A stretch of DNA of 64,000 nt from positions 12,498-76,497 of the forward strand of contig JAOASE010000011.1 of NCBI GenBank assembly GCA_025210155.1, given 5' to 3'. The notes under the pieces were generated by a model. It did not search any database. It was not told where the DNA came from and saw only the letters and a list, made by a program, of their open reading frames with translations. Below are positions 43,181 to 55,227 of this stretch, in pieces (position 1 is the first letter of the stretch; each line of letters starts with the position of its first letter). The stretch comes from Alphaproteobacteria bacterium (lineage in GTDB: Bacteria > Pseudomonadota > Alphaproteobacteria > Rs-D84 > CASDRH01). A program made the position numbers and the translations under genes.

Positions 43181-43322
43181 GAACTTTCTCCAATAATAAT
43201 TTCTTTATACAGCTGATAGTAAAACCAACTCCAAACAATGTCAATCTATTTTTAATAGAAATTATTAATTAAAATCCCAAGAAAATAAAAAAAATCCCCG
43301 AAAAAATCCGAGAACATAAGAA

Positions 43323-43378
<56 letters not shown>

Positions 43379-43497
43379 TCCCATGGAAATAAAAAACTTA
43401 CAACAAACAAGAACAAACAATAATAATAAAATCAAAGACTTACAAAATTATTATTTATTCTCCATATTTACTATTTTTTCTCATTTATTAGCTCTAC

Positions 43498-43515
43498 TGT
43501 CCCACCAGTGTCCCA
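43498..43515 (+). promoter_or_regulatory. Arm-type repeat pair TGTCCCA-n4-TGTCCCA
   Basis: TGTCCCAccagTGTCCCA. The same dyad recurs at 55062..55079, and inverted at 54962..54979. Confidence 0.45.
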
Positions 43516-43527
43516 TTAAATTATATT

Positions 43528-43728
43528 TTATTTTTTAGAACCAATCTTTTCTTCATTGAATTTCTTTTCAATTTTCACTTCAATATCTCTCAAAACTCCA
43601 AATATAAGAAATAGTAGACCAACAATCATTGGTAAAAAATTATCAATAATTAATGAATTTGGCACAAATAAATTTAACATACCTATTCCCAAAAATATTA
43701 TTCCTAATATATAACTAATCATTTTCAT
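43528..43728 (-). CDS. Small two-TM membrane protein (66 aa)
   Basis: It has two hydrophobic helices and a charged tail. The start lies 4 nt after the stop of the HEPN gene. Confidence 0.5.
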   Translation of the reverse strand: MKMISYILGIIFLGIGMLNLFVPNSLIIDNFLPMIVGLLFLIFGVLRDIEVKIEKKFNEEKIGSKK

Positions 43729-43732
43729 CTCC

Positions 43733-44566
43733 TTATCTTATTATATTATCCCAATTATCTTTTATTAAGCTTGATAACTTATATAAATTTAATATTGATA
43801 AATAAGCCTCACTTTCAGATATTATTGTTTCTTCTCCATGAGCTGCATTATCTCTAAACTTTTTTATATAAAATGATAATGCCTCATACATATCTTGAAT
43901 ATTCTTATCAGTTCTTCCTAATGTACAGTCTCTTATTTCTTTTAATTTCCCAGTGTTGGAATATATTTCAATAGCACGATTTAACTTTTCAGTTTTAGTT
44001 TTTTTACTAGCTATTGCCAACAATATAGCTTCAGATGCGGAACCTGTCATTACACAACTTGCTGTATAAAAATTTTGTTCATAAGTATTTATAGCCTCTA
44101 AAGATCTTTGATAAAATGCATTACCAAATAATTCCTTAAATTCACCAAATATTTTAGAAAATTTTGAAGTAGTTATAAATAAAATATCATCTTTATTTTC
44201 AAACCACTTTTTACCCATAGATGTTAACGAATATCCATGATTTAATGTATTTGAATTAACACTCTGATAACTTGAAACTATAGATGTCTCATTAGGTCTT
44301 AAAATACCCTTATTTGTTAATAACCATAATGCGTCTAAAAATTGAGGATATAAAAATTTTAATTCCCTATATTGGGTAGCTGGTGATTGTGATAATGTAA
44401 TCCCATTATTATTACAGTACCATTTAACTAAATATGGCAACCATAAATCAAATCCACAATTCCTATTTGTAGATATATTTATTACACCACTTTGTATCAT
44501 CTCTATAATAAAATCAACACACTCATCTATAGATAATTTTTCTTTTACGTCATGCACATTTACCAT
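43733..44566 (-). CDS. HEPN-domain protein (277 aa), putative RNase
   Basis: The C-terminal helical domain carries an Rx4H motif, FRDNAAHGEE, of the DUF4145/AbiU2-like type. Confidence 0.5.
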   Translation of the reverse strand: MVNVHDVKEKLSIDECVDFIIEMIQSGVINISTNRNCGFDLWLPYLVKWYCNNNGITLSQSPATQYRELKFLYPQFLDALWLLTNKGILRPNETSIVSSYQSVNSNTLNHGYSLTSMGKKWFENKDDILFITTSKFSKIFGEFKELFGNAFYQRSLEAINTYEQNFYTASCVMTGSASEAILLAIASKKTKTEKLNRAIEIYSNTGKLKEIRDCTLGRTDKNIQDMYEALSFYIKKFRDNAAHGEETIISESEAYLSILNLYKLSSLIKDNWDNIIR

Positions 44567-45765: not shown

Positions 45766-47550
45766 TTACCATTCAGGAAGATTGAACAATCTTCCACTAT
45801 CTCCACTTTCATCCAAAGTCTTTACAATATGAAAAATAGATGACAAATCTTCTATTTCATCCCCATTTAATTTTTTATTAGGAATATCTGAAGATATTGA
45901 TGATATTATTATTTGTATATTATATTCATTACAATACCTAATTATTAAATCTAATATTTTTTCCTTTTTTCTAGGTTCCAAAGTTTCAAACAAACCATCT
46001 AAATAAGTAAAATGTAAAAACTTATAATCTTTATAGTGTCTTAAAATGGATAAAACAAAAGCTATACATAAAATTTTTCCATAAGTATTACCATCATCTT
46101 CAGATGTATTTTTACCATCTTTTGTTATAAACTTTGCAGAAAAACTAGGATTACCCGTATCTGCAGGCTTCATAGAAATAATAGCATTCTTATCCAAAAC
46201 CTCAGAAACAATTTCTGAAAAAATCGTTCTAATTTTTGTATACTCTTCATTATTAGTATCTCTTTTTATATCTTCAATAAGAGAGTTTCTTACTGATATT
46301 AAACCATCTTTTTCCCTTTCCAAAATTCCAAGCTTTATAATATTTTCCTTTAATTCATTTAAGCTTATTAATTCCATTTTTTTATCAGATAAAAAGCCTT
46401 GTAATTTTTTATACTTATTTATAATATCCTTAGAATTTAAAATATTTATATATCTAGTTTTTTCATCATCTAATTCTTTTAACTTGTTTTCAACGACCCC
46501 CAACTCCTCTTCTGAATTTTTTAATTCGATCTTAAGCTGTTTATTTCTTTCCATCGTAATAGATTTATTAAAAGCTAATAATTCTTCATATGATTTTCTA
46601 ATCTGACTACTAAAACAAATACCACTCTCCATAAAAAGACTCTCAGCATTTTTTAATGAAAACTTTGTTTTTGAGCTAGAGATAGATTTTTTTAAATCAT
46701 AAATTTTATTTGTTATAACATATCTCTTTCTAGAAAATTCTAAAATATTTTTTTCTATATTTTCTATAAGATCTGTATTAACTTCTTTTTCCAAATTATA
46801 AAACTTAAGATTATCAAGTTCTTCTTCCTTTTTAGATATATCCTTTTCTAAATATAAAATTTTTCCCTGCACTACATCAATATCATCCTCATTTATTAAT
46901 GTTTTTAATCCCCTTATTTTACTATTAATATTTTCTATATTCTCATTTTCATCATAAATATTTAATAAAATATTATGGTTAAATCCTAACAAAGATAATA
47001 AATGAGGCTTCCATTCTTTATCTAAAATATTAGTATCCATTTTAAATGGGTTTTCAAAATTATTTTGAAGCCTTATAAGATAACCTAATGTTTTCCTATA
47101 AGAAAAATCATTTAATGATTGAACATTCAAAAAGCCTCTAATTATACTCTTAGCATTATCAATTGATATTTTATAATGATCAAACTCTCTTTCTTCCAAG
47201 TTTATAAAATATTGATGTTTAGTATCTGATCTTTTTATACTTATTTTAGACTGATTTTCTACTCCTCTTATTATTGTAACATACTCACCATCACCTACCT
47301 TCAATTCTAATGCAAATATAAGCTCCTCAAATACATCTTTATGCTCTATAAGAAAAATATTATTTTTATTAAGTTTTTTCAAAAAACAAAAATCTAAAAG
47401 TTTTGCAAAAGTTGTCTTTCCTAAATTATGGCTATCTCTTTCTTTATTTAAAAAATCTTTAATATTAGCTAAAACAAGATTTAACCCATCTTCAAAAAAA
47501 AGATCTTCAAAAACATCTGGTTTATTACAATATAATTTTGATAATCTCAT
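45766..47550 (-). CDS. ABC-type ATPase with coiled-coil insert (DUF2326/ABC-3C type)
   Basis: The N-terminus reads MRLSKLYCNKP..F..GLNLVLA....DSHNLGKTTF (Walker A). A long coiled-coil middle is followed by the Walker B-like FLHFTYLDGLFETL. Confidence 0.65.
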   Translation of the reverse strand: MRLSKLYCNKPDVFEDLFFEDGLNLVLANIKDFLNKERDSHNLGKTTFAKLLDFCFLKKLNKNNIFLIEHKDVFEELIFALELKVGDGEYVTIIRGVENQSKISIKRSDTKHQYFINLEEREFDHYKISIDNAKSIIRGFLNVQSLNDFSYRKTLGYLIRLQNNFENPFKMDTNILDKEWKPHLLSLLGFNHNILLNIYDENENIENINSKIRGLKTLINEDDIDVVQGKILYLEKDISKKEEELDNLKFYNLEKEVNTDLIENIEKNILEFSRKRYVITNKIYDLKKSISSSKTKFSLKNAESLFMESGICFSSQIRKSYEELLAFNKSITMERNKQLKIELKNSEEELGVVENKLKELDDEKTRYINILNSKDIINKYKKLQGFLSDKKMELISLNELKENIIKLGILEREKDGLISVRNSLIEDIKRDTNNEEYTKIRTIFSEIVSEVLDKNAIISMKPADTGNPSFSAKFITKDGKNTSEDDGNTYGKILCIAFVLSILRHYKDYKFLHFTYLDGLFETLEPRKKEKILDLIIRYCNEYNIQIIISSISSDIPNKKLNGDEIEDLSSIFHIVKTLDESGDSGRLFNLPEW

Positions 47551-47789
47551 TATTCCCCCACATACTCAATATTATCACCATTCACTCTATATTCAATTAG
47601 ACCTAATAAAAATAAAAAGCCCAAACTCTCTATAAAAAGAATCTCACCAACAGTTCCATATTCTTTTTTAATTTTTTCTTTTATTTCATCCAATTCTAAA
47701 ATCCTAACTTGTCTCAACTTCTTTAATATAAACAAGCTAATTGATAATAAATTTTTATCTGGATTCATATGTTTATTAGGTAAAAGCAT
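47550..47789 (-). CDS. Small wHTH-like middle component (79 aa) of the ABC-3C-like system
   Basis: Its stop overlaps the ATPase ATG (ATGA-type junction at 47550). Its size and position match the ABC-3C middle component. Confidence 0.5.
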   Translation of the reverse strand: MLLPNKHMNPDKNLLSISLFILKKLRQVRILELDEIKEKIKKEYGTVGEILFIESLGFLFLLGLIEYRVNGDNIEYVGE

Positions 47790-47794
47790 TTTCT

Positions 47795-48718
47795 TTATTT
47801 TTTCCCTATATCACAATGATAATACATATAATATACAAAAGTTTTTGTTAATAATTTATTACTACTAAAAACATTATCTCTTTCAAAGAAGTAATCTAAA
47901 ATAGCTTCAAAAACCAAATCAAAAGATTTAGAAGAGGATAACATAGCCACTTTAGTATCTATACCATCAATAACATCATTATATAATTTTTGTTCCTCAG
48001 GACCTTCTAAAAAATTTTTTATTTTATAAAAATTATGAAGATATTTCTCTTTTATTTTATCTGAATAATATTCAGATAAATTATTTATTTTATTTTTTTC
48101 ATCAAATTTAATTCTTTCCCCAATTACAGGTATCAATTTATCAGAACTAAATTCTTTTTTAAAACCTATTAAAAGATCTTTTAAATCAGAAAAATCTATC
48201 TTTAAATTATCAAACGGTCTAATAAATTCAATTTTATCTTGAATTTTAGGAAATTCAAAAAGCCAATCATCCATCTCTTCCGTTCCAAATAAATGAATAT
48301 TAGACTCACTAATACCAACTTTATTTGAAATATATTTTTTAATATCCATTTCAGATATACTAGATAAGCGCCTATTTGCAAATAAAAAGTAATGATCTAA
48401 TTTTTTAGCATCATATAATTTTTTAATACGAATTATTTCTTTATTTATAATTGATGAATTATTCTTAAAAAAGTCATTATCTGAAAAAGTAGAATTTTTA
48501 TTAATAGTATGCTTAGCCTGAATTACCATCTTTCCACTCATTGTACTCTTACTACTAGGATATAATTCAGAAACACCTTCAAAAAAAGCATCTCTACCAC
48601 CATCTTTTCCTTTTGAGAATTTTTTAACACCAGGACCTAAAAGGTTATAACATATGTTATATACAATATCTTCAAAAACACCATCATCATATTCAGAATA
48701 CAATATCTTCTGACTCAT
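47795..48718 (-). CDS. Mrr-like restriction-endonuclease-fold effector with a C-terminal helical domain (307 aa)
   Basis: GKDGGRDAFFEG followed by MVIQAKHT gives a D...QxK nuclease core. It is the first gene of the three-gene operon. Confidence 0.55.
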   Translation of the reverse strand: MSQKILYSEYDDGVFEDIVYNICYNLLGPGVKKFSKGKDGGRDAFFEGVSELYPSSKSTMSGKMVIQAKHTINKNSTFSDNDFFKNNSSIINKEIIRIKKLYDAKKLDHYFLFANRRLSSISEMDIKKYISNKVGISESNIHLFGTEEMDDWLFEFPKIQDKIEFIRPFDNLKIDFSDLKDLLIGFKKEFSSDKLIPVIGERIKFDEKNKINNLSEYYSDKIKEKYLHNFYKIKNFLEGPEEQKLYNDVIDGIDTKVAMLSSSKSFDLVFEAILDYFFERDNVFSSNKLLTKTFVYYMYYHCDIGKK

Positions 48719-49564: not shown

Positions 49565-50086
49565 TTAATGATAAATTTCATTACAAGTTACAAGTCTGGA
49601 AAAATCAACTTTTTTTCCTTTAAAATCAAGCTCTTTCATTAGATAAATAATCAATTTATCTGAGTAAACTTCCTTAGCAAAAATCTCGCGCGCGTACATA
49701 CGCCTGCGTATATGTGTCGGAAAACTATCTATTTTTTTACATCCAAAAAAAGAATTATACCTAATAATATCTTGAATATCCTTTAGCTTTTTATCAAACA
49801 TCTCAAGAGAAATATCTCTTATATTTAAAATAATATGAGTATGATACATATCATATCTTCCCTTTTCTATAACTATAAAAAATCGTAAAGAATTTTTTAT
49901 CCAATGCCTTCCAAGTACTCTACGATTTAAAACCCTCATTATCCATCTTACTTCTTCTTTTAAAAATTCCTCACTCTTAACTTCATTATAATACCTAATT
50001 GTTAAAAATACTATTTTACCATTATCAAAATCTATAATATCCTTTAACCAACGATTAATCACTGCATAATTATTACTAACTTGCAT
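49565..50086 (-). CDS. Possible HUH-type replication initiator (inovirus Gp2-like)
   Basis: FFIVIEKGRYDMYHTHIILN resembles the HUH motif context of small rolling-circle Rep proteins. It sits where a satellite replication gene would be expected. Confidence 0.35.
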   Translation of the reverse strand: MQVSNNYAVINRWLKDIIDFDNGKIVFLTIRYYNEVKSEEFLKEEVRWIMRVLNRRVLGRHWIKNSLRFFIVIEKGRYDMYHTHIILNIRDISLEMFDKKLKDIQDIIRYNSFFGCKKIDSFPTHIRRRMYAREIFAKEVYSDKLIIYLMKELDFKGKKVDFSRLVTCNEIYH

Positions 50087-50219
50087 AACACATATCCTTC
50101 TAATTTTAGATTAAACAACTTATATAAAAACCAAGCCAATCCTTTTCTAAGCTAATATATAAATCTATGTAATAAGATCACCGGTGATAAATATGTTTAA
50201 ATTTTATTTCCATTCGGAA

Positions 50220-50432
50220 TTATTTCGATAAATTTTTAGAGAACTGTTCTCTAAGTACCCTTTTAGCACTTTCAGTTAAATTCTTTTTTTGATAGGGATT
50301 TTTACCGAAACGAAATTCATGCAATGAACAACCTTTAACAGGACAAAGTTGCACTTCTTTAGAGCTATTAAAACAACAGTCTAAGCACTTCACTCTAATT
50401 GCTTTAAGAGGCGTATTTTTTTTCTTCTTCAT
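50220..50432 (-). CDS. Small zinc-finger protein (70 aa)
   Basis: A CLDCC...CPVKGCSLH Cys cluster is present. The start lies 2 nt after the stop of the Xis-like gene. Confidence 0.5.
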   Translation of the reverse strand: MKKKKNTPLKAIRVKCLDCCFNSSKEVQLCPVKGCSLHEFRFGKNPYQKKNLTESAKRVLREQFSKNLSK

Positions 50433-50434
50433 AA

Positions 50435-50653
50435 TTACACCTCTAAGCTCTTTTTATCAATCCATTGAAAAAAAGCATCAACATCTATAAGAATCTTTTT
50501 ACCAATTCTTTTAAGAACTTTTTGTTCATCCATACCATTTAATTTAGAATTAAAAATATAACCTCTTATTGATCCATGTGAAAAAGCCGGAAAACTTTCC
50601 ACAAATTGTTTTACAGTCATCAGACTTGATACTGTGATTTGATTATTTTTCAT
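50435..50653 (-). CDS. Excisionase/AlpA-like HTH DNA-binding protein (72 aa)
   Basis: MTVKQFVESFPAFSHGSIRGYI...ILIDVDAFFQWI fits the Xis/MerR-type winged helix. Confidence 0.55.
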   Translation of the reverse strand: MKNNQITVSSLMTVKQFVESFPAFSHGSIRGYIFNSKLNGMDEQKVLKRIGKKILIDVDAFFQWIDKKSLEV

Positions 50654-50734: not shown

Positions 50735-51457
50735 TTAACTCTCTTTCCCTAAATTTTGGGAAAATCTAGCATAATTTTTTTTATAATAATTATATGCATT
50801 TAAAAATAATTTAGAATTACGATCTAATCTAAAAAATTTATGCATTAAAAATATATATTCTTTAAAGAATACTTCATTATTCTTAGACTCTCTTAAATTA
50901 GGTTTTCTATCAGATAATAAAATATAAATAGAAATAAGAATATCCAAAAAACCTTCTTTAGAAACTCTATTAATCTTAATCTTTGACGGGTATTTCTTTT
51001 CAGCCCTTCTACAAACCTCTTCCCAATACTTAATATCATTCTCAATTTTAGTTGATATAAACTGCATTCTATCTTTCCTTAAACGGAAATGAGAATTCCT
51101 AATTAAATCTATATCCATAGAATTCAAATTAGAAATTTTATCATTAAGATTTTTAAAAGCATTTTCTAACTGTTTTATTTTTCTAGCAGGTTCCTTTTCT
51201 TCAAAGTCTTCCTGATTATAATAATCTCTAAAGACATAAGAATTCAAACCTCTCAAAATATTCAAATATGCTAAATTAATATCTATTTTACCCTCATTTA
51301 AAGTTATTTTCTTAAGTAAATTTAAACATTCCCCTTCTATACTTTTCAACTCTACATTTGGTAAAGAATTCTTTAATTCATAAACTTCATATTCCAAATC
51401 TTCTTTAGAAAAATTCTTATATTTTAAATGAGTAAAACAAAACTGCTGTAGATCCAT
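50735..51457 (-). CDS. Hypothetical protein (240 aa)
   Basis: Its ATG overlaps the integrase stop at 51457. No motif was recognised. Confidence 0.45.
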   Translation of the reverse strand: MDLQQFCFTHLKYKNFSKEDLEYEVYELKNSLPNVELKSIEGECLNLLKKITLNEGKIDINLAYLNILRGLNSYVFRDYYNQEDFEEKEPARKIKQLENAFKNLNDKISNLNSMDIDLIRNSHFRLRKDRMQFISTKIENDIKYWEEVCRRAEKKYPSKIKINRVSKEGFLDILISIYILLSDRKPNLRESKNNEVFFKEYIFLMHKFFRLDRNSKLFLNAYNYYKKNYARFSQNLGKES

Positions 51458-52524
51458 TATCTATCCCCAAACATTTTTTGATTCATTCTTTCAACAACAG
51501 AGCTTGTATGACTTTCAGATAAATGAGAATATCTCTTAACCATTTGCAATGTCTTATGACCTAATATCTCTGCAATTTCAGATGGAGTAGCTCCATTCAT
51601 AGCCAAATAACTTGCTGCAGTATGCCTTAAATCATGAAATCTAAAATTCTTAATATCAGCTTTCTTTAAAGAAGTTTCCCAACTATCCCTAATTTGAATA
51701 GGAACCTTTTTATCTTTAATAGATGGAAAAACTAAATTACTCTCATAATCTCGCTTATTATAAAGATCTTTTACCATCTCTAAAGCCTTACCCTTTAAAG
51801 GAAGAACTCTTTTCTCTCCATTCTTTGTCTCAAATAAAACAATCTTATTCCCCTTAATATCTACATTACTCCATTCTAAATTCAATATCTCACCTTGCCT
51901 AGCCCCAGTAGATAGAGCAATCATAACAATTACTTCTAAATAGGGACTCTTACTCTGAGAAACAACTTCTAATAGTCTTACCCTCTCATCATCTGAAAGA
52001 TATCTGACAACACCTTTAGGCTCTTCTAAATTAGATATTTTATTAAATGGATTACTCTCCAATAAATTCCACTCATTAACAGCTATACTAAAACAATGAC
52101 TCAAAGCTGAAGTATATCTATTAACCGTTGAAAAAGATCTCTTCTCTCCATTCTTTTTAGGTATATCCAACAGCTTTTGTCTAGCTTTAACAAGAGCTGA
52201 AGAATTCAGTTCTAACAACAACACATAACCTATAGTCTTTTTCCACCATTCTAACTTAGCTTTAACATCTTCCAACCTCTTAGGTTTATTAACAAGATAT
52301 TCATCAATATACTTATCTATAAGCTGAGATAGATTAAACTTTTTAGCATTAGAATGAGAAAAATATTTTCCCCTTCTTATATCAGCCTCTGTTTGCTGAG
52401 CCCATAACCTAGCATCTGTAAGTCTTTCAAAACTAGCCGTTTCTTGAGGCTTCCCTTTTATTCTTATACGAACTCTATATGAAAACTTATTATTTCCCAA
52501 TGGTCTCTTTTCTATCGTCGCCAT
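51457..52524 (-). CDS. int: Tyrosine recombinase (phage integrase family)
   Basis: Motifs seen: ALSTGARQGEIL, HDLRHTAASYL, and LGHKTLQMVKRYSH. Confidence 0.9.
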   Translation of the reverse strand: MATIEKRPLGNNKFSYRVRIRIKGKPQETASFERLTDARLWAQQTEADIRRGKYFSHSNAKKFNLSQLIDKYIDEYLVNKPKRLEDVKAKLEWWKKTIGYVLLLELNSSALVKARQKLLDIPKKNGEKRSFSTVNRYTSALSHCFSIAVNEWNLLESNPFNKISNLEEPKGVVRYLSDDERVRLLEVVSQSKSPYLEVIVMIALSTGARQGEILNLEWSNVDIKGNKIVLFETKNGEKRVLPLKGKALEMVKDLYNKRDYESNLVFPSIKDKKVPIQIRDSWETSLKKADIKNFRFHDLRHTAASYLAMNGATPSEIAEILGHKTLQMVKRYSHLSESHTSSVVERMNQKMFGDR

Positions 52525-52527
52525 AAT

Positions 52528-53205
52528 CTACTCCCAAATTTTCTTATGTGTTATTTCTAAAATTTCATATTTTTTTATCTTTAAACCATTTTTAATATCA
52601 TCAAAAAAAACTACATTAAAATTAGACTCTAACTCATTTAATTTAGTATCATAAATTTTTGAAACATAATATTTATCTCCAAAGTAAACCAATATTTCTT
52701 TTTTATCACCAATCTCCTCTAATACAGAATATTTTTTTTGAAGATAAGTAGGTTGAAGAATAAATATGATTAAAGAAAAGAATATAAATTTTGAAAACTT
52801 TTCTTCTTTTATATTTTCTAAAAATGAATTTAAATAAATTGCTATTGTATAACCTATACTAAGATTTCCTAAAATTTCATTTTTCAAAAAAACTCCTAAC
52901 AAAATAATAAAAATAGGACTTAATAAAATTAAATAACTCCAAAAAACACTTTTAAACATATTTGAGAGTTTTAAAGAAAATAAATATAAGAAATAAACTA
53001 AAAAAATTATTATAAAACTTTTTCCCAATATAAGTAAACAATCATTATATGTTATTTTTATTAAATAAAAAGGTATATCAAATTTAACAATAATATTTTG
53101 CCTATAATGAATATATGTCTTTAAATAGACTATTCCTAAAATAAATAAAGGTAAAATAACACCTAGATAATTAGAATTTAGTATTCTTTTCATCTTTTCT
53201 TCCAT
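52528..53205 (-). CDS. Multi-pass membrane protein (225 aa), partner of the RT
   Basis: About five TM helices are followed by a ~70-aa soluble C-terminus. It starts 18 nt after the RT stop and ends 3 nt before the int start. Confidence 0.55.
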   Translation of the reverse strand: MEEKMKRILNSNYLGVILPLFILGIVYLKTYIHYRQNIIVKFDIPFYLIKITYNDCLLILGKSFIIIFLVYFLYLFSLKLSNMFKSVFWSYLILLSPIFIILLGVFLKNEILGNLSIGYTIAIYLNSFLENIKEEKFSKFIFFSLIIFILQPTYLQKKYSVLEEIGDKKEILVYFGDKYYVSKIYDTKLNELESNFNVVFFDDIKNGLKIKKYEILEITHKKIWE

Positions 53206-53223
53206 AACGACTCCTAAATATTT

Positions 53224-54843
53224 TTAAAAAGGGATTTCCTCAATATCATCATCAATAGACTCAACTTCAATAAATTTCATAAAGTTAATATTATTATCTT
53301 TCATAAACTTAAATTCCTTACCCATAACTCCCTTGTATGGATTTCCAATAATTCCATTAAAAAACAACTCATATTCCAACAACCAATAAGAATTTTCAAA
53401 GTTCATATATTCTATAACATCATCATCATTCTTATTTTGAATAGAAGATCTATAATATTTTTTTAATACATCTATATCCCGACTCTTATTATCGGATTTA
53501 AAATAATAAAATATCATCAATAATGATAAACAGTCCTTCATTTTAAATTTATTATTTTTATAAAAATTATCTGAGTTAATCCAAAAATCATATTTAATAG
53601 ATAAATATAAACACCAAACAAAAACATCTATCTGTTGTTTCTCAACACTAGAAATAATAAGCTTATCTATATATAAATTCATAGATATATCATGAACCCC
53701 AAATTTTTCAAAAAAAACATCTAACAAGGATATCAAATATGGATACTTAAATATCATTTGTATTAAGCTTTTTAATATAAAATTATATTTTTGATCATCC
53801 ATATCTTCTACAGTATTTAAAAGAGTTTTCATTCCAAACTTATATACTTTACCAAAATTTAAAACGGAATGTTTATGTAATAAATCTATAAATAACTTTA
53901 TAGATGTCTCCTCATCTTTCAAATCAAAATTTTTAATATCATAAATCCAATTTTCATAAAAAGTATTAGGAATACTTTCTACAGAGAATTTAAAGTCATT
54001 TAAAGATAATTTATATTTATATAATTCTCTCCTTAAAATATTTCTAAATTTTTCAACTTCCAAATCATCTTTAGCATAAAAAACATAATCATCAATAAAC
54101 CTATAATAATTTTCAAATTCATCTCTTAGAACACTATCTATCTTGGAGAGTAAAATATCTGCTATCACATAAGAAGTATCTGGTCCTATAGGAATTCCGT
54201 AACTTTCTCTACTATCTAAATTCATAATAGTATTTTCTAACTTATTATTAAATAATTCAGTATTATTTCTATGTTTTTTAGCTTCACTTTTTCCTAAAAT
54301 AGCCCAGGATATAGAGTGTGAATAAATTGAATCATAAAATTTAGTTATATCAAATTTAACTTTATATTTAGAAAATAATTTATAATCTAAATCAAAATCT
54401 TCTTCAAAATATTTATAAGAAGACATATCAAACAATCTACCATCTTTTTTCATAGACACTAAATTAGGATTAACTTCACCAGTCCCCATATATTCCCAAT
54501 TCTTTTTAAAATACTCATACAAGTCACTTTCCCAATAAAAAGATATACAATTCACCAAATCAAAATATGCTAAAAAATTAGGTATTTTAAGACCTCTAAC
54601 TTCATTTTTATCTCTAGTTAAAGGAAAATAAAGAGATAAAGTAGAGTTATTTTTCAATAAAGATATATAATTTTCAAAATCTATTTTCCTATAGTAAACA
54701 TTTCCAAAATTCTCAGAGTTGAAACAAGGAGGTAAATGTTCTGGAAATAAACCATATTTCAATAGTCTTGAAGCTAAATCATGTCTATTAGAAACATATC
54801 TAATATTATTATTATAAGAACTCATAAAAACCAACCTTTCCAT
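53224..54843 (-). CDS. AbiK/Abi-P2-like (class 1 UG/Abi) reverse transcriptase
   Basis: RT motifs A (FDITKFYDSIYSHSISW), B' (YGIPIGPDTSYVIADILLSKID) and C (YRFIDDYVFY) are present. The spacing and the GKSEAKKHR segment parallel AbiK as I recall it. A ~250-aa helical C-terminus follows. Confidence 0.7.
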   Translation of the reverse strand: MERLVFMSSYNNNIRYVSNRHDLASRLLKYGLFPEHLPPCFNSENFGNVYYRKIDFENYISLLKNNSTLSLYFPLTRDKNEVRGLKIPNFLAYFDLVNCISFYWESDLYEYFKKNWEYMGTGEVNPNLVSMKKDGRLFDMSSYKYFEEDFDLDYKLFSKYKVKFDITKFYDSIYSHSISWAILGKSEAKKHRNNTELFNNKLENTIMNLDSRESYGIPIGPDTSYVIADILLSKIDSVLRDEFENYYRFIDDYVFYAKDDLEVEKFRNILRRELYKYKLSLNDFKFSVESIPNTFYENWIYDIKNFDLKDEETSIKLFIDLLHKHSVLNFGKVYKFGMKTLLNTVEDMDDQKYNFILKSLIQMIFKYPYLISLLDVFFEKFGVHDISMNLYIDKLIISSVEKQQIDVFVWCLYLSIKYDFWINSDNFYKNNKFKMKDCLSLLMIFYYFKSDNKSRDIDVLKKYYRSSIQNKNDDDVIEYMNFENSYWLLEYELFFNGIIGNPYKGVMGKEFKFMKDNNINFMKFIEVESIDDDIEEIPF

Positions 54844-54961
54844 TTTCTTAATTAAACTCTATAACTATCCTCCACAAAAGTCAACACTGGAGAAAAAACC
54901 GATGAATAAAACCCTAAAACATTATACTATTCAAGACATTCATAAACAAATATGAAATTCA

Positions 54962-54979
54962 TGGGACAATTACGGGACA
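54962..54979 (-). promoter_or_regulatory. Arm-type repeat pair, inverted orientation
   Basis: TGGGACAattacGGGACA is the reverse complement of TGTCCC-n5-TGTCCCA. Confidence 0.4.
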
Positions 54980-55061
54980 AATATCTTAACAAACACCAGA
55001 GACAAACAAGGAGTTTATTACTACTCATTCTTCTTATTTATTGCAGTTTTTTATTTTCAAC

Positions 55062-55079
55062 TGTCCCACGAGTGTCCCA
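55062..55079 (+). promoter_or_regulatory. Arm-type repeat pair TGTCCCA-n4-TGTCCCA
   Basis: TGTCCCAcgagTGTCCCA lies 60 nt from the tRNA 3' end. Confidence 0.45.
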
Positions 55080-55139
55080 GAGACATAAAAAAAGAGCTTA
55101 AAGAAAATTCTCAATCTTCCTTAAACCCTTGTAAAATAA

Positions 55140-55227
<88 letters not shown>

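What the first reader, a model, noticed from the sequence alone, without database searches (positions are those of the whole stretch)
52528..54843. AbiK-like reverse transcriptase paired with a multi-TM protein, inserted between integrase and tRNA
The 539-aa protein has RT motifs A, B' and C with the spacing and flanking residues of AbiK/Abi-P2-type RTs, plus a helical C-terminal extension. Those are normally described as single-gene systems. Here a 225-aa protein with about five TM helices and a soluble C-terminal domain follows 18 nt later and ends 3 nt before int. The RT, TM and int genes thus form one tight co-directional block. The location between int and the att site is the kind of cargo hotspot seen in P2 and P4-type elements. 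A membrane effector coupled to an Abi-class RT would be a new combination.
Basis: partly seen in the sequence, partly recalled or inferred. Interest (0 to 1): 0.7.

Follow-up and report, generated by a model that had tools for sequence, protein, structure and literature searches.

The report
Divergent DRT4 defence RT with orphan membrane-protein neighbour
The reverse transcriptase is a divergent member of the known stand-alone anti-phage enzyme DRT4, carried as cargo on a small tRNA-inserted mobile island, and nothing beyond adjacency at this one locus links it to the membrane protein next to it.

Summary
They sit at one end of an 11.8-kb integrative island bounded by a 64-nt repeat of the tRNA-Ser 3' end.

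The RT is not AbiK proper. It is a full-length, divergent DRT4/UG15 enzyme:
- PADLOC Drt4 scores 7e-95, against 5e-34 for AbiK.
- The best solved-structure matches are DRT4/UG15, with TM-scores of 0.79-0.86.
- The catalytic FIDD motif and the equivalent of the priming Tyr125 (Y143 here) are conserved.

DRT4 is an experimentally proven single-gene defence.

The 225-aa protein is a real gene with about five TM helices and a small beta-rich C-terminal domain. An exhaustive search of 1.84 billion representative proteins found one true homolog. That homolog lies inside a type I R-M operon after a KilA-N gene, with no RT nearby.

Among 97 full-length DRT4-like loci, none has a TM-protein homolog. 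None has a tightly linked downstream ORF with three or more TM segments.

Tight spacing is uninformative, because the island is densely packed on one strand and DRT4 homologs elsewhere abut hsdR or hsdS just as closely. Membrane (SLATT) partners of other UG/Abi RTs are already known. The pairing is most likely two independent cargo genes.

The parts
53224..54843 (-). Divergent DRT4/UG15-class defence reverse transcriptase (539 aa; probable real start at 54825, giving 533 aa). Catalytic FIDD is at residues 249-252. Y143 is the putative priming tyrosine. The alpha-helical C-terminal domain spans about residues 312-516.
   Evidence: PADLOC Drt4 7e-95, full length. PDB DRT4/UG15 chains at E about 1e-36. 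AF2 model pLDDT 83; Foldseek best match 9vdo DRT4, TM 0.79/0.86. D251 and D252 are invariant and Y143 at least 90% conserved in alignment A1. Y143 aligns to E. coli DRT4 Tyr125 (alignment; PMC12783706).
52528..53205 (-). Orphan 225-aa membrane protein with 4-5 TM helices and a roughly 70-aa strand-rich C-terminal domain. It has its own Shine-Dalgarno sequence. Probably an independent cargo gene.
   Evidence: ORF; SD; hydropathy. No Pfam, PADLOC, PHROG, NCBIfam or PDB match. One true homolog, P0101, among 1.84e9 representatives, located in a type I R-M operon.
51457..52524 (-). Tyrosine integrase of the island.
   Evidence: PF00589 4.8e-35; phrog_1 integrase 2e-70. Relatives at 38-51% identity lie next to tRNA genes.
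55140..55227 (-). tRNA-Ser(TGA), the integration target. Its 3' part is the attL core.
   Evidence: ARAGORN; Rfam tRNA 61.4 bits; repeat D1.
55135..55198 (.). attL copy of the 64-nt direct repeat.
   Evidence: the repeat finder D1, 97% identical to 43318-43381, spacing 11817.
43318..43381 (.). attR copy of the 64-nt direct repeat (a tRNA-Ser 3' remnant). This is the far end of the island.
   Evidence: the repeat finder D1; sequence read.
54963..55078 (.). Candidate arm-type recombinase binding sites. Two GGGACA pairs 11 nt apart, in inverted orientation, lie between the tRNA and the RT gene. A third pair sits at 43498-43514 near attR.
   Evidence: 6 of the 10 GGGACA matches in the window lie within about 200 nt of the island ends. 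The region folds with z = -3.4. The function is inferred.
54856..54884 (-). Candidate sigma-70-type promoter (TTGACT-17-TAGAGT) upstream of the RT. It could drive RT, TM and int together.
   Evidence: Consensus scan only. Promoter-like sites are not enriched over shuffles, so this is weak.

Best explanation
The 539-aa protein is a divergent DRT4 (UG15) defence reverse transcriptase.

Mechanism, inferred by homology to the characterised E. coli enzyme: it should form a hexamer. It should use a tyrosine in the palm (Y143 here) to prime template-independent synthesis of random single-stranded DNA. Host 3'-5' exonuclease normally removes that DNA. When a phage DNA-binding protein protects it, the DNA accumulates and the infected cell dies (abortive infection). 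No partner protein is required for this.

The gene is cargo on an 11.8-kb tyrosine-integrase island inserted in tRNA-Ser, in the slot between the att arm sites and int. The same island carries an ABC-3C system.

The adjacent 225-aa membrane protein is most likely a separate cargo gene of defence hotspots. A plausible role is a membrane-acting abortive-infection or exclusion protein of its own. It is probably co-transcribed with the RT and int only because the island is compact.

Shown here: gene identities, island borders, conserved catalytic and priming residues, and the absence of the neighbour elsewhere. Inferred: the enzymology, the trigger and the role of the TM protein.
For: RT class:
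- PADLOC Drt4 7e-95 over residues 9-523.
- PDB DRT4/UG15 chains at about 1e-36, full length.
- Foldseek ranks DRT4 (0.79/0.86) above DRT6 (0.75/0.81), AbiK (0.70/0.65) and Abi-P2.
- FIDD and Y143 are conserved.

DRT4 works alone: Tyr125 priming, YIDD catalysis and single-gene sufficiency are reported in PMC12783706. UG15 is described as stand-alone in PMC9226505.

Island: the 64-nt repeat, int, and the ABC-3C genes.

No coupling between RT and TM:
- 87 DRT4-like loci have at least 800 nt of downstream sequence. Only 21 of them have a co-directional ORF of at least 80 aa within 50 nt, and none of those has three or more TM segments.
- tblastn with the TM protein against all RT loci finds nothing.
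- The four closest relatives looked up stand alone or follow SIR2-HerA.
- DRT4 homologs abut hsdR or hsdS with gaps from -49 to +15 nt, most between -4 and +15 (L014, L030, L041, L053, L076, L072). Tight spacing therefore does not imply a shared system.
- The only TM homolog, P0101, lies in the order hsdM, KilA-N, TM, hsdS, Fic.
Against: - The RT and TM genes are 18 nt apart with no predicted terminator between them.
- They are two of the most AT-rich genes of the island (GC 0.23 and 0.18, against 0.32 for int). They may therefore have arrived together.
- In both known contexts the TM family gene directly follows another gene (1 nt after KilA-N, 18 nt after the RT). It could be a portable effector module.
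- Sporadic membrane accessories (SLATT) of other DRTs set a precedent.
- The RT scores below the NCBIfam Drt4 equivalog cut-off (279 against 450 bits) and is only about 25% identical to E. coli DRT4. Its biochemistry could therefore differ.
Confidence: 0.72

Rival explanations
1. RT and TM form a two-gene defence system. The DRT4-like RT makes ssDNA on infection. The membrane protein is its effector or accessory and turns ssDNA accumulation into membrane permeabilisation. This would be analogous to SLATT in DRT10/UG17 or in the AbiA and UG23 variants.
For: - An 18-nt gap on the same strand with no terminator.
- Similar extreme AT content in both genes.
- Precedent for RT plus membrane effector in the UG/Abi family (PMC9226505; bioRxiv 10.64898/2026.04.29.721553).
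- The DRT4 paper leaves the link between ssDNA and cell death open and mentions ion-channel activation in other systems.
Against: - There is only one such locus. None of 97 DRT4-like loci has a homolog, or a tightly linked ORF with three or more TM segments.
- The only TM homolog has no RT nearby.
- DRT4 is sufficient alone in E. coli (PMC12783706).
- The TM protein is not SLATT by Pfam or PADLOC.
- The island is densely packed throughout.
Confidence: 0.12
2. The TM protein serves the mobile element itself rather than defence. Examples would be a membrane 'moron' affecting host physiology, or a factor tied to int expression. The RT is unrelated cargo.
For: - The TM stop codon lies 3 nt before the int start, so int is probably translated from the same transcript.
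- Four int relatives have int next to the tRNA with nothing in between.
Against: - The homolog P0101 lies in a type I R-M operon with no integrase in the 4.7-kb contig.
- No int relative carries a TM homolog (the A2 scans were negative).
Confidence: 0.1
3. The 225-aa ORF is a compositional artefact of very AT-rich DNA (Phe, Ile, Leu, Lys and Asn codons) and is not a gene. Alternatively, only the 119-aa C-terminal part annotated in one public record is real.
For: - The gene has GC 0.18.
- One source annotates only a 119-aa product from an internal TTG (P0100).
Against: - P(no stop in 225 codons) is about 1.6e-11.
- There is a strong SD before the ATG.
- The homolog aligns from residue 3 to 219 with many identities in the N-terminal half.
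Confidence: 0.03

Closest known systems
DRT4 / UG15 (Class 1 UG/Abi defence reverse transcriptase; E. coli 12-c8-a enzyme, PDB 9vdo/9ltm/9l9s)
   Same: - Full-length collinear match, RT domain plus alpha-helical C-terminal domain.
- [Y/F]IDD catalytic motif.
- A palm tyrosine aligned to the priming Tyr125.
- Best sequence and fold match.
- Carried in defence islands and on mobile elements.
   Different: - Only about 25% identical to the solved enzyme, and 33-36% to the nearest database relatives.
- Below the NCBIfam equivalog cut-off.
- FIDD instead of YIDD.
- An orphan membrane-protein gene follows 18 nt downstream.
- The host has a roughly 1-Mb, 28% GC genome.
AbiK / Abi-P2
   Same: - Same Class 1 UG/Abi superfamily and the same RT plus alpha-repeat architecture.
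- The family chemistry is protein-primed and template-independent.
   Different: - Much weaker matches: PADLOC 5e-34, PDB 1.5e-07, TM-score 0.70/0.65.
- AbiK primes from Tyr44 and Abi-P2 from Tyr61, in the fingers loop. Here the conserved tyrosine is at the DRT4 palm position.
DRT6 / UG12
   Same: Second-best profile match (7.7e-78) and fold match (TM 0.75/0.81). It is also stand-alone and triggered by the same phage protein as DRT4.
   Different: It scores consistently below DRT4 in every comparison.
RT + SLATT membrane-effector systems (DRT10/UG17, AbiA-small + SLATT, UG23 + SLATT, DRT3 accessory SLATT)
   Same: Gene order is an RT followed by a small membrane protein. This is the functional model the two-gene reading would follow.
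   Different: - The membrane protein here has no SLATT signature.
- It has 4-5 TM helices rather than 2-3.
- It is not conserved with the RT clade.
- No ncRNA was detected.
tRNA-targeting tyrosine-integrase islands that carry defence cargo (satellite-like or genomic-island hotspots)
   Same: - A direct repeat of the tRNA 3' end, int near attL, and several defence systems on 11.8 kb.
- Variable content between the tRNA and int among integrase relatives.
   Different: - No capsid or packaging genes, so it is not shown to be a phage satellite.
- The replication gene has only a weak Rep ORF2/G2P match.

Membership tests
DRT4 / UG15 | Full-length similarity to DRT4 profiles, better than to any other UG/Abi group | tested here: met
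   PADLOC Drt4 7e-95 (residues 9-523 against profile positions 4-501 of 506). Next are Drt6 at 7.7e-78, UG30 at 1e-51 and AbiK at 5e-34.
DRT4 / UG15 | Score above the NCBIfam NF041749 Drt4 equivalog cut-off. This is a naming threshold, not a structural feature. | tested here: not met
   279 bits against a 450-bit cut-off. I therefore file it as a divergent DRT4-clade member, not as an equivalog of the E. coli enzyme.
DRT4 / UG15 | Catalytic YxDD-type motif C, essential in DRT4 (D240/D241) | tested here: met
   R248-F-I-D251-D252. D251 and D252 are invariant in 21 relatives and align to the YIDD of 9vdo.
DRT4 / UG15 | Priming tyrosine in the palm (Tyr125 of E. coli DRT4) | tested here: met
   Y143 aligns to Y134 of 9vdo, which is native Y125 after the 9-residue tag offset. 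It is at least 90% conserved in A1. Priming activity itself was not tested.
DRT4 / UG15 | C-terminal alpha-repeat domain and a DRT4-like overall fold | tested here: met
   The AF2 model (pLDDT 83) has helices at 312-516. Foldseek: 9vdo TM 0.79/0.86 over 532 columns; UG15 crystal 9l9s 0.78.
DRT4 / UG15 | Hexamer; template-independent, protein-primed ssDNA synthesis; abortive infection | not testable with these tools
   Needs biochemistry and phage assays. Known for E. coli DRT4 (PMC12783706).
DRT4 / UG15 | Stand-alone architecture, with no conserved partner gene | tested here: met
   Downstream genes in 87 loci are heterogeneous. The largest recurrent neighbour family is HsdR, in 4 loci.
AbiK | Closest similarity to AbiK profiles and structures | tested here: not met
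   PADLOC AbiK 5e-34 against Drt4 7e-95. PDB AbiK 1.5e-07. Foldseek TM 0.70/0.65 at ranks 6-10.
SLATT membrane effectors (for the 225-aa protein) | Match to SLATT domain models | tested here: not met
   No Pfam hit to any SLATT family even at E<=10. No PADLOC hit.
SLATT membrane effectors (for the 225-aa protein) | Architecture of 2-3 TM helices | tested here: not met
   4-5 hydrophobic helices, conserved in position in the homolog.
Two-gene RT + membrane-effector system | Co-occurrence of the two gene families across independent genomes | tested here: not met
   An exhaustive phmmer search of 1.84e9 representatives found one true homolog of the TM protein, and it has no RT neighbour. No TM homolog lies in the RT loci (133 loci with an RT match, 97 of them full length).
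tRNA-integrated tyrosine-recombinase island | Integrase plus a direct repeat of the tRNA 3' end bounding the element | tested here: met
   64-nt repeat, 97% identical, spacing 11817. PF00589 4.8e-35. The relative island L093 has a 46-nt tRNA-Trp repeat with spacing 7222.

The most novel reading that the evidence does not exclude
The orphan 5-TM protein is a new, non-SLATT membrane effector or accessory recruited by a DRT4-clade RT, linking accumulation of RT-made ssDNA to membrane damage. More broadly, it could be a portable effector that plugs in behind different sensors: behind the RT here, and behind a KilA-N protein in the type I R-M locus.
Probability: 0.1. Interest if true: 0.6.

Novelty: new member of a known kind. 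Interest (0 to 1): 0.25.

Why it matters
If the best explanation holds, this is one more divergent DRT4. It extends the family into a very AT-rich, roughly 1-Mb genome. It also illustrates a compact mobile island stacking DRT4 and ABC-3C at a tRNA. That helps annotation but is not surprising.

The one open point is the membrane protein. It belongs to a two-member family, and both members lie among defence-type genes, so it is a cheap candidate for a new stand-alone Abi or exclusion gene.

If it did cooperate with DRT4, it would bear on a question the DRT4 paper leaves open: how ssDNA accumulation kills the cell.

Tried and rejected
Searches for TM homologs that found nothing, apart from the exhaustive search:
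- Word-indexed search, single sequence and two-sequence profile. The profile search returned only the already known P0101.
- Metagenome scan with the two-sequence alignment A2.
- IMG/VR viral contig scan.
- Phage and plasmid tblastn.
- Pfam and PDB at E<=10.
Only the exhaustive representative search found P0101.

Other steps that led nowhere or were set aside:
- The AF2 model of the TM protein had pLDDT 43. I judged it unusable and did not run a fold search on it.
- The first genome scan with the single RT sequence found nothing. It was repeated successfully with alignment A1.
- I considered that the 11,819-nt Logan contig L001 might be an excised circle. I rejected this: its ends fall exactly where a k=31 de Bruijn unitig would break at the 58-nt exact repeat (my own calculation).
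- I considered a ncRNA upstream of the RT. Rfam finds only the tRNA. The upstream region does fold well (z = -3.4), but a terminator hairpin and inverted GGGACA pairs explain that better.
- P0100 looked like a truncated allele. It is the same sequence annotated from an internal TTG start.
- L091 as an example of cargo between tRNA and int is only suggestive, because the other att end is not within the 17-kb locus.
- Host taxonomy could not be determined; names are masked for window-encoded proteins.
Full report
**Observation.** The three - strand ORFs are exactly as described. The RT is at 53224..54843 (539 aa), the membrane protein at 52528..53205 (225 aa) and the integrase at 51457..52524 (355 aa). 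The gaps are 18 nt and 3 nt. tRNA-Ser(TGA) lies at 55140..55227 on the same strand. The RT passes Pfam RVT_1, and int matches PF00589 at 4.8e-35.

The 225-aa ORF is a real gene. A stop-free run of 225 codons has a probability of about 1.6e-11 at this composition. An AGGAG sequence sits 6 nt before its ATG. A homolog aligns over residues 3-219. Hydropathy and the predicted secondary structure give 4-5 TM helices and a strand-rich C-terminal domain of about 70 aa.

**Setting.** A 64-nt direct repeat of the tRNA-Ser 3' part (55135-55198 and 43318-43381, 97% identical) bounds an 11.8-kb island. All of the island's listed genes are on the - strand, and most junctions are short or overlapping. From the tRNA end the order is:
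- RT, TM and int
- ORFs of 240, 72 and 70 aa
- a 173-aa protein with a weak Rep ORF2/G2P match
- a 153-aa ORF
- a three-gene ABC-3C system: CTD12 effector (7e-29), MC8 middle component, and DUF2326 ABC ATPase (4.8e-17)
- several small ORFs

Island GC is 0.255, against 0.284 for the rest of the window. The RT (0.23) and TM (0.18) genes are among the most AT-rich, but so are the ABC-3C genes at 0.23-0.25. Pairs of GGGACA spaced 11 nt apart occur near both island ends and account for 6 of the 10 matches in the window. They are plausible arm-type recombinase sites. If so, RT-TM lies between the att arm and int.

**The RT.**
- PADLOC gives Drt4 at 7e-95 over essentially the whole protein, then Drt6 at 7.7e-78, UG30 at 1e-51 and AbiK at only 5e-34.
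- Against PDB sequences, the best hits are the DRT4/UG15 chains 9vdo, 9ltm and 21ou at about 1e-36, full length. AbiK scores 1.5e-07.
- An AF2 model built on 21 relatives has pLDDT 83. Its best Foldseek matches are DRT4 9vdo (TM 0.79/0.86), UG15 9l9s, DRT6 9wy8 (0.75/0.81), AbiK (0.70/0.65) and Abi-P2 (about 0.58).
- The catalytic motif is FIDD at 249-252, and both aspartates are invariant.
- Using the 9-residue tag offset of 9vdo, verified on D240/D241, the priming Tyr125 of E. coli DRT4 aligns with Y143. Y143 is at least 90% conserved among relatives.
- The protein is divergent. Its nearest database relatives are 33-36% identical. It scores 279 bits against the 450-bit NCBIfam Drt4 equivalog cut-off.

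I therefore call it a divergent DRT4-clade RT, not AbiK.

**What DRT4 does (literature).** E. coli DRT4 is a single-gene system. It forms a dimer of trimers. It constitutively makes random ssDNA without a template, primed by Tyr125. ExoI degrades the product. [quoted passage not shown] Mestre et al. list UG15 among stand-alone multi-domain proteins (PMC9226505).

**Is the membrane protein a partner?**
- The word-indexed search found no homolog.
- An exhaustive phmmer search of 1.84 billion representatives returned two proteins. One is the same gene annotated from an internal TTG (P0100). The other is one true homolog, P0101 (248 aa, 34% identity, E 2e-21).
- A profile of the two sequences found nothing more. 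Neither did scans of metagenome, viral, phage and plasmid collections.
- P0101 sits in the order hsdM (N6_Mtase 1.7e-69), KilA-N protein, P0101, hsdS, Fic. There is no RT.
- I collected 80 DRT4-like loci from GTDB genomes, 48 from viral contigs and four of the closest metagenomic relatives.
- tblastn with the TM protein hits none of them.
- Of 97 full-length loci, 87 have at least 800 nt of downstream sequence. Only 21 of those have a co-directional ORF of at least 80 aa within 50 nt. None of the 21 has three or more TM segments.
- The recurrent tight neighbours are HsdR (four loci clustered, plus L076 by Pfam) and HsdS (L072), with gaps from -49 to +15 nt. A Bro-N protein recurs in three related betaproteobacteria.
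- Two of the closest relatives directly follow SIR2-HerA.

DRT4 genes are therefore habitual hitch-hikers that abut unrelated defence genes. Tight spacing carries little weight.

**The cargo-slot idea is supported.**
- Integrase relatives at 38-51% identity sit 240-400 nt from a tRNA in L093 (Trp), L094/L095 (Leu), L096 (Arg) and L102 (Met).
- L093 is a clean 7.2-kb island with a 46-nt repeat.
- In L091, 4 kb between tRNA-Met and int carries HEPN/RES-NTD1+RES, Abi_2 and DUF4145 genes. Its far end was not captured.

**Novelty of the combination.** Membrane (SLATT) partners are already described for AbiA, UG23, UG3+UG8, UG28 and UG17/DRT10. In DRT10, cDNA accumulation is proposed to activate the SLATT effector. 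An RT plus a membrane effector is thus not new for the UG/Abi family. It would be new only for DRT4 and for a non-SLATT protein. The 225-aa protein shows no SLATT signature.

**Verdict.**
- Most likely (about 0.7), this is a stand-alone divergent DRT4 and an unrelated orphan membrane cargo gene, side by side in the att-int slot of a compact defence island.
- A true RT-TM system remains possible (about 0.1), on adjacency and shared composition alone.
- The membrane protein family has two members, both among defence-type genes. It is the only mildly new item and is worth a simple expression test.
- Interest is low to moderate (0.25). Novelty: new member of a known kind.

Noticed in passing
window 45766-48718 (- strand): A complete three-gene ABC-3C system lies in the same island. 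It comprises a DUF2326 ABC ATPase (45766-47550), a 79-aa MC8 middle component (47550-47789) and an effector with CTD12 (47795-48718, 7e-29). PADLOC 2.0 has no model for the effector, the only one of the three scanned.
   Followed up: partly
window 55062-55078, 54963-54979 and 43498-43514: Pairs of GGGACA spaced 11 nt apart occur near both island ends, a direct pair and an inverted pair near attL and one pair near attR. They make up 6 of the 10 matches in 64 kb and are candidate arm-type Int/Xis binding sites.
   Followed up: partly
L088 1-4755 (ENA ERZ23491059 scaffold_66184): The only homolog of the membrane protein lies inside a type I R-M operon, in the order hsdM, KilA-N protein (275 aa), TM homolog (248 aa), hsdS, Fic. 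The junctions are 1 nt apart or overlapping. KilA-N plus TM may be a cassette of its own.
   Followed up: partly
L014, L030, L041, L053, L076 (hsdR) and L072 (hsdS), downstream of the RT: DRT4-like RT genes are repeatedly inserted directly upstream of type I restriction hsdR or hsdS genes, with gaps from -49 to +15 nt. In L086 and L087 the RT start abuts the stop of a SIR2-HerA pair.
   Followed up: partly
L091 3912-9086: A relative of the integrase (51% identity) has 4 kb between tRNA-Met and int. That stretch carries a HEPN/RES-NTD1+RES protein, an Abi_2 protein and a DUF4145 protein. The same slot holds different defence-type cargo, but the other att end was not in the locus.
   Followed up: partly
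window 52528-53205: One public source annotates only a 119-aa product starting at an internal TTG (L107). Two others call the 225-aa form. Conservation of the N-terminal half in the homolog supports the long form.
   Followed up: yes
window 43733-44566 and 43528-43728 (- strand): At the attR end of the island there is a 277-aa protein with a weak HEPN (MAE_28990-like) match (E 0.0094, below cut-off). A 66-aa hydrophobic ORF follows it. These may be another small defence or toxin module.
   Followed up: no
window 49565-50653 (- strand): This looks like the island backbone. It has a 173-aa protein with a sub-threshold Rep ORF2/G2P match (4.2e-05), a 70-aa cysteine-rich ORF and a 72-aa ORF. This suggests the island may replicate after excision, but no capsid or packaging genes were seen.
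   Followed up: no
whole window: The window's proteins occur on a contig of 1,048,500 bp, and the window GC is 0.28. This suggests a small, AT-rich Gram-negative genome (lpxD and fabZ are present). It still carries a multi-system mobile defence island.
   Followed up: no
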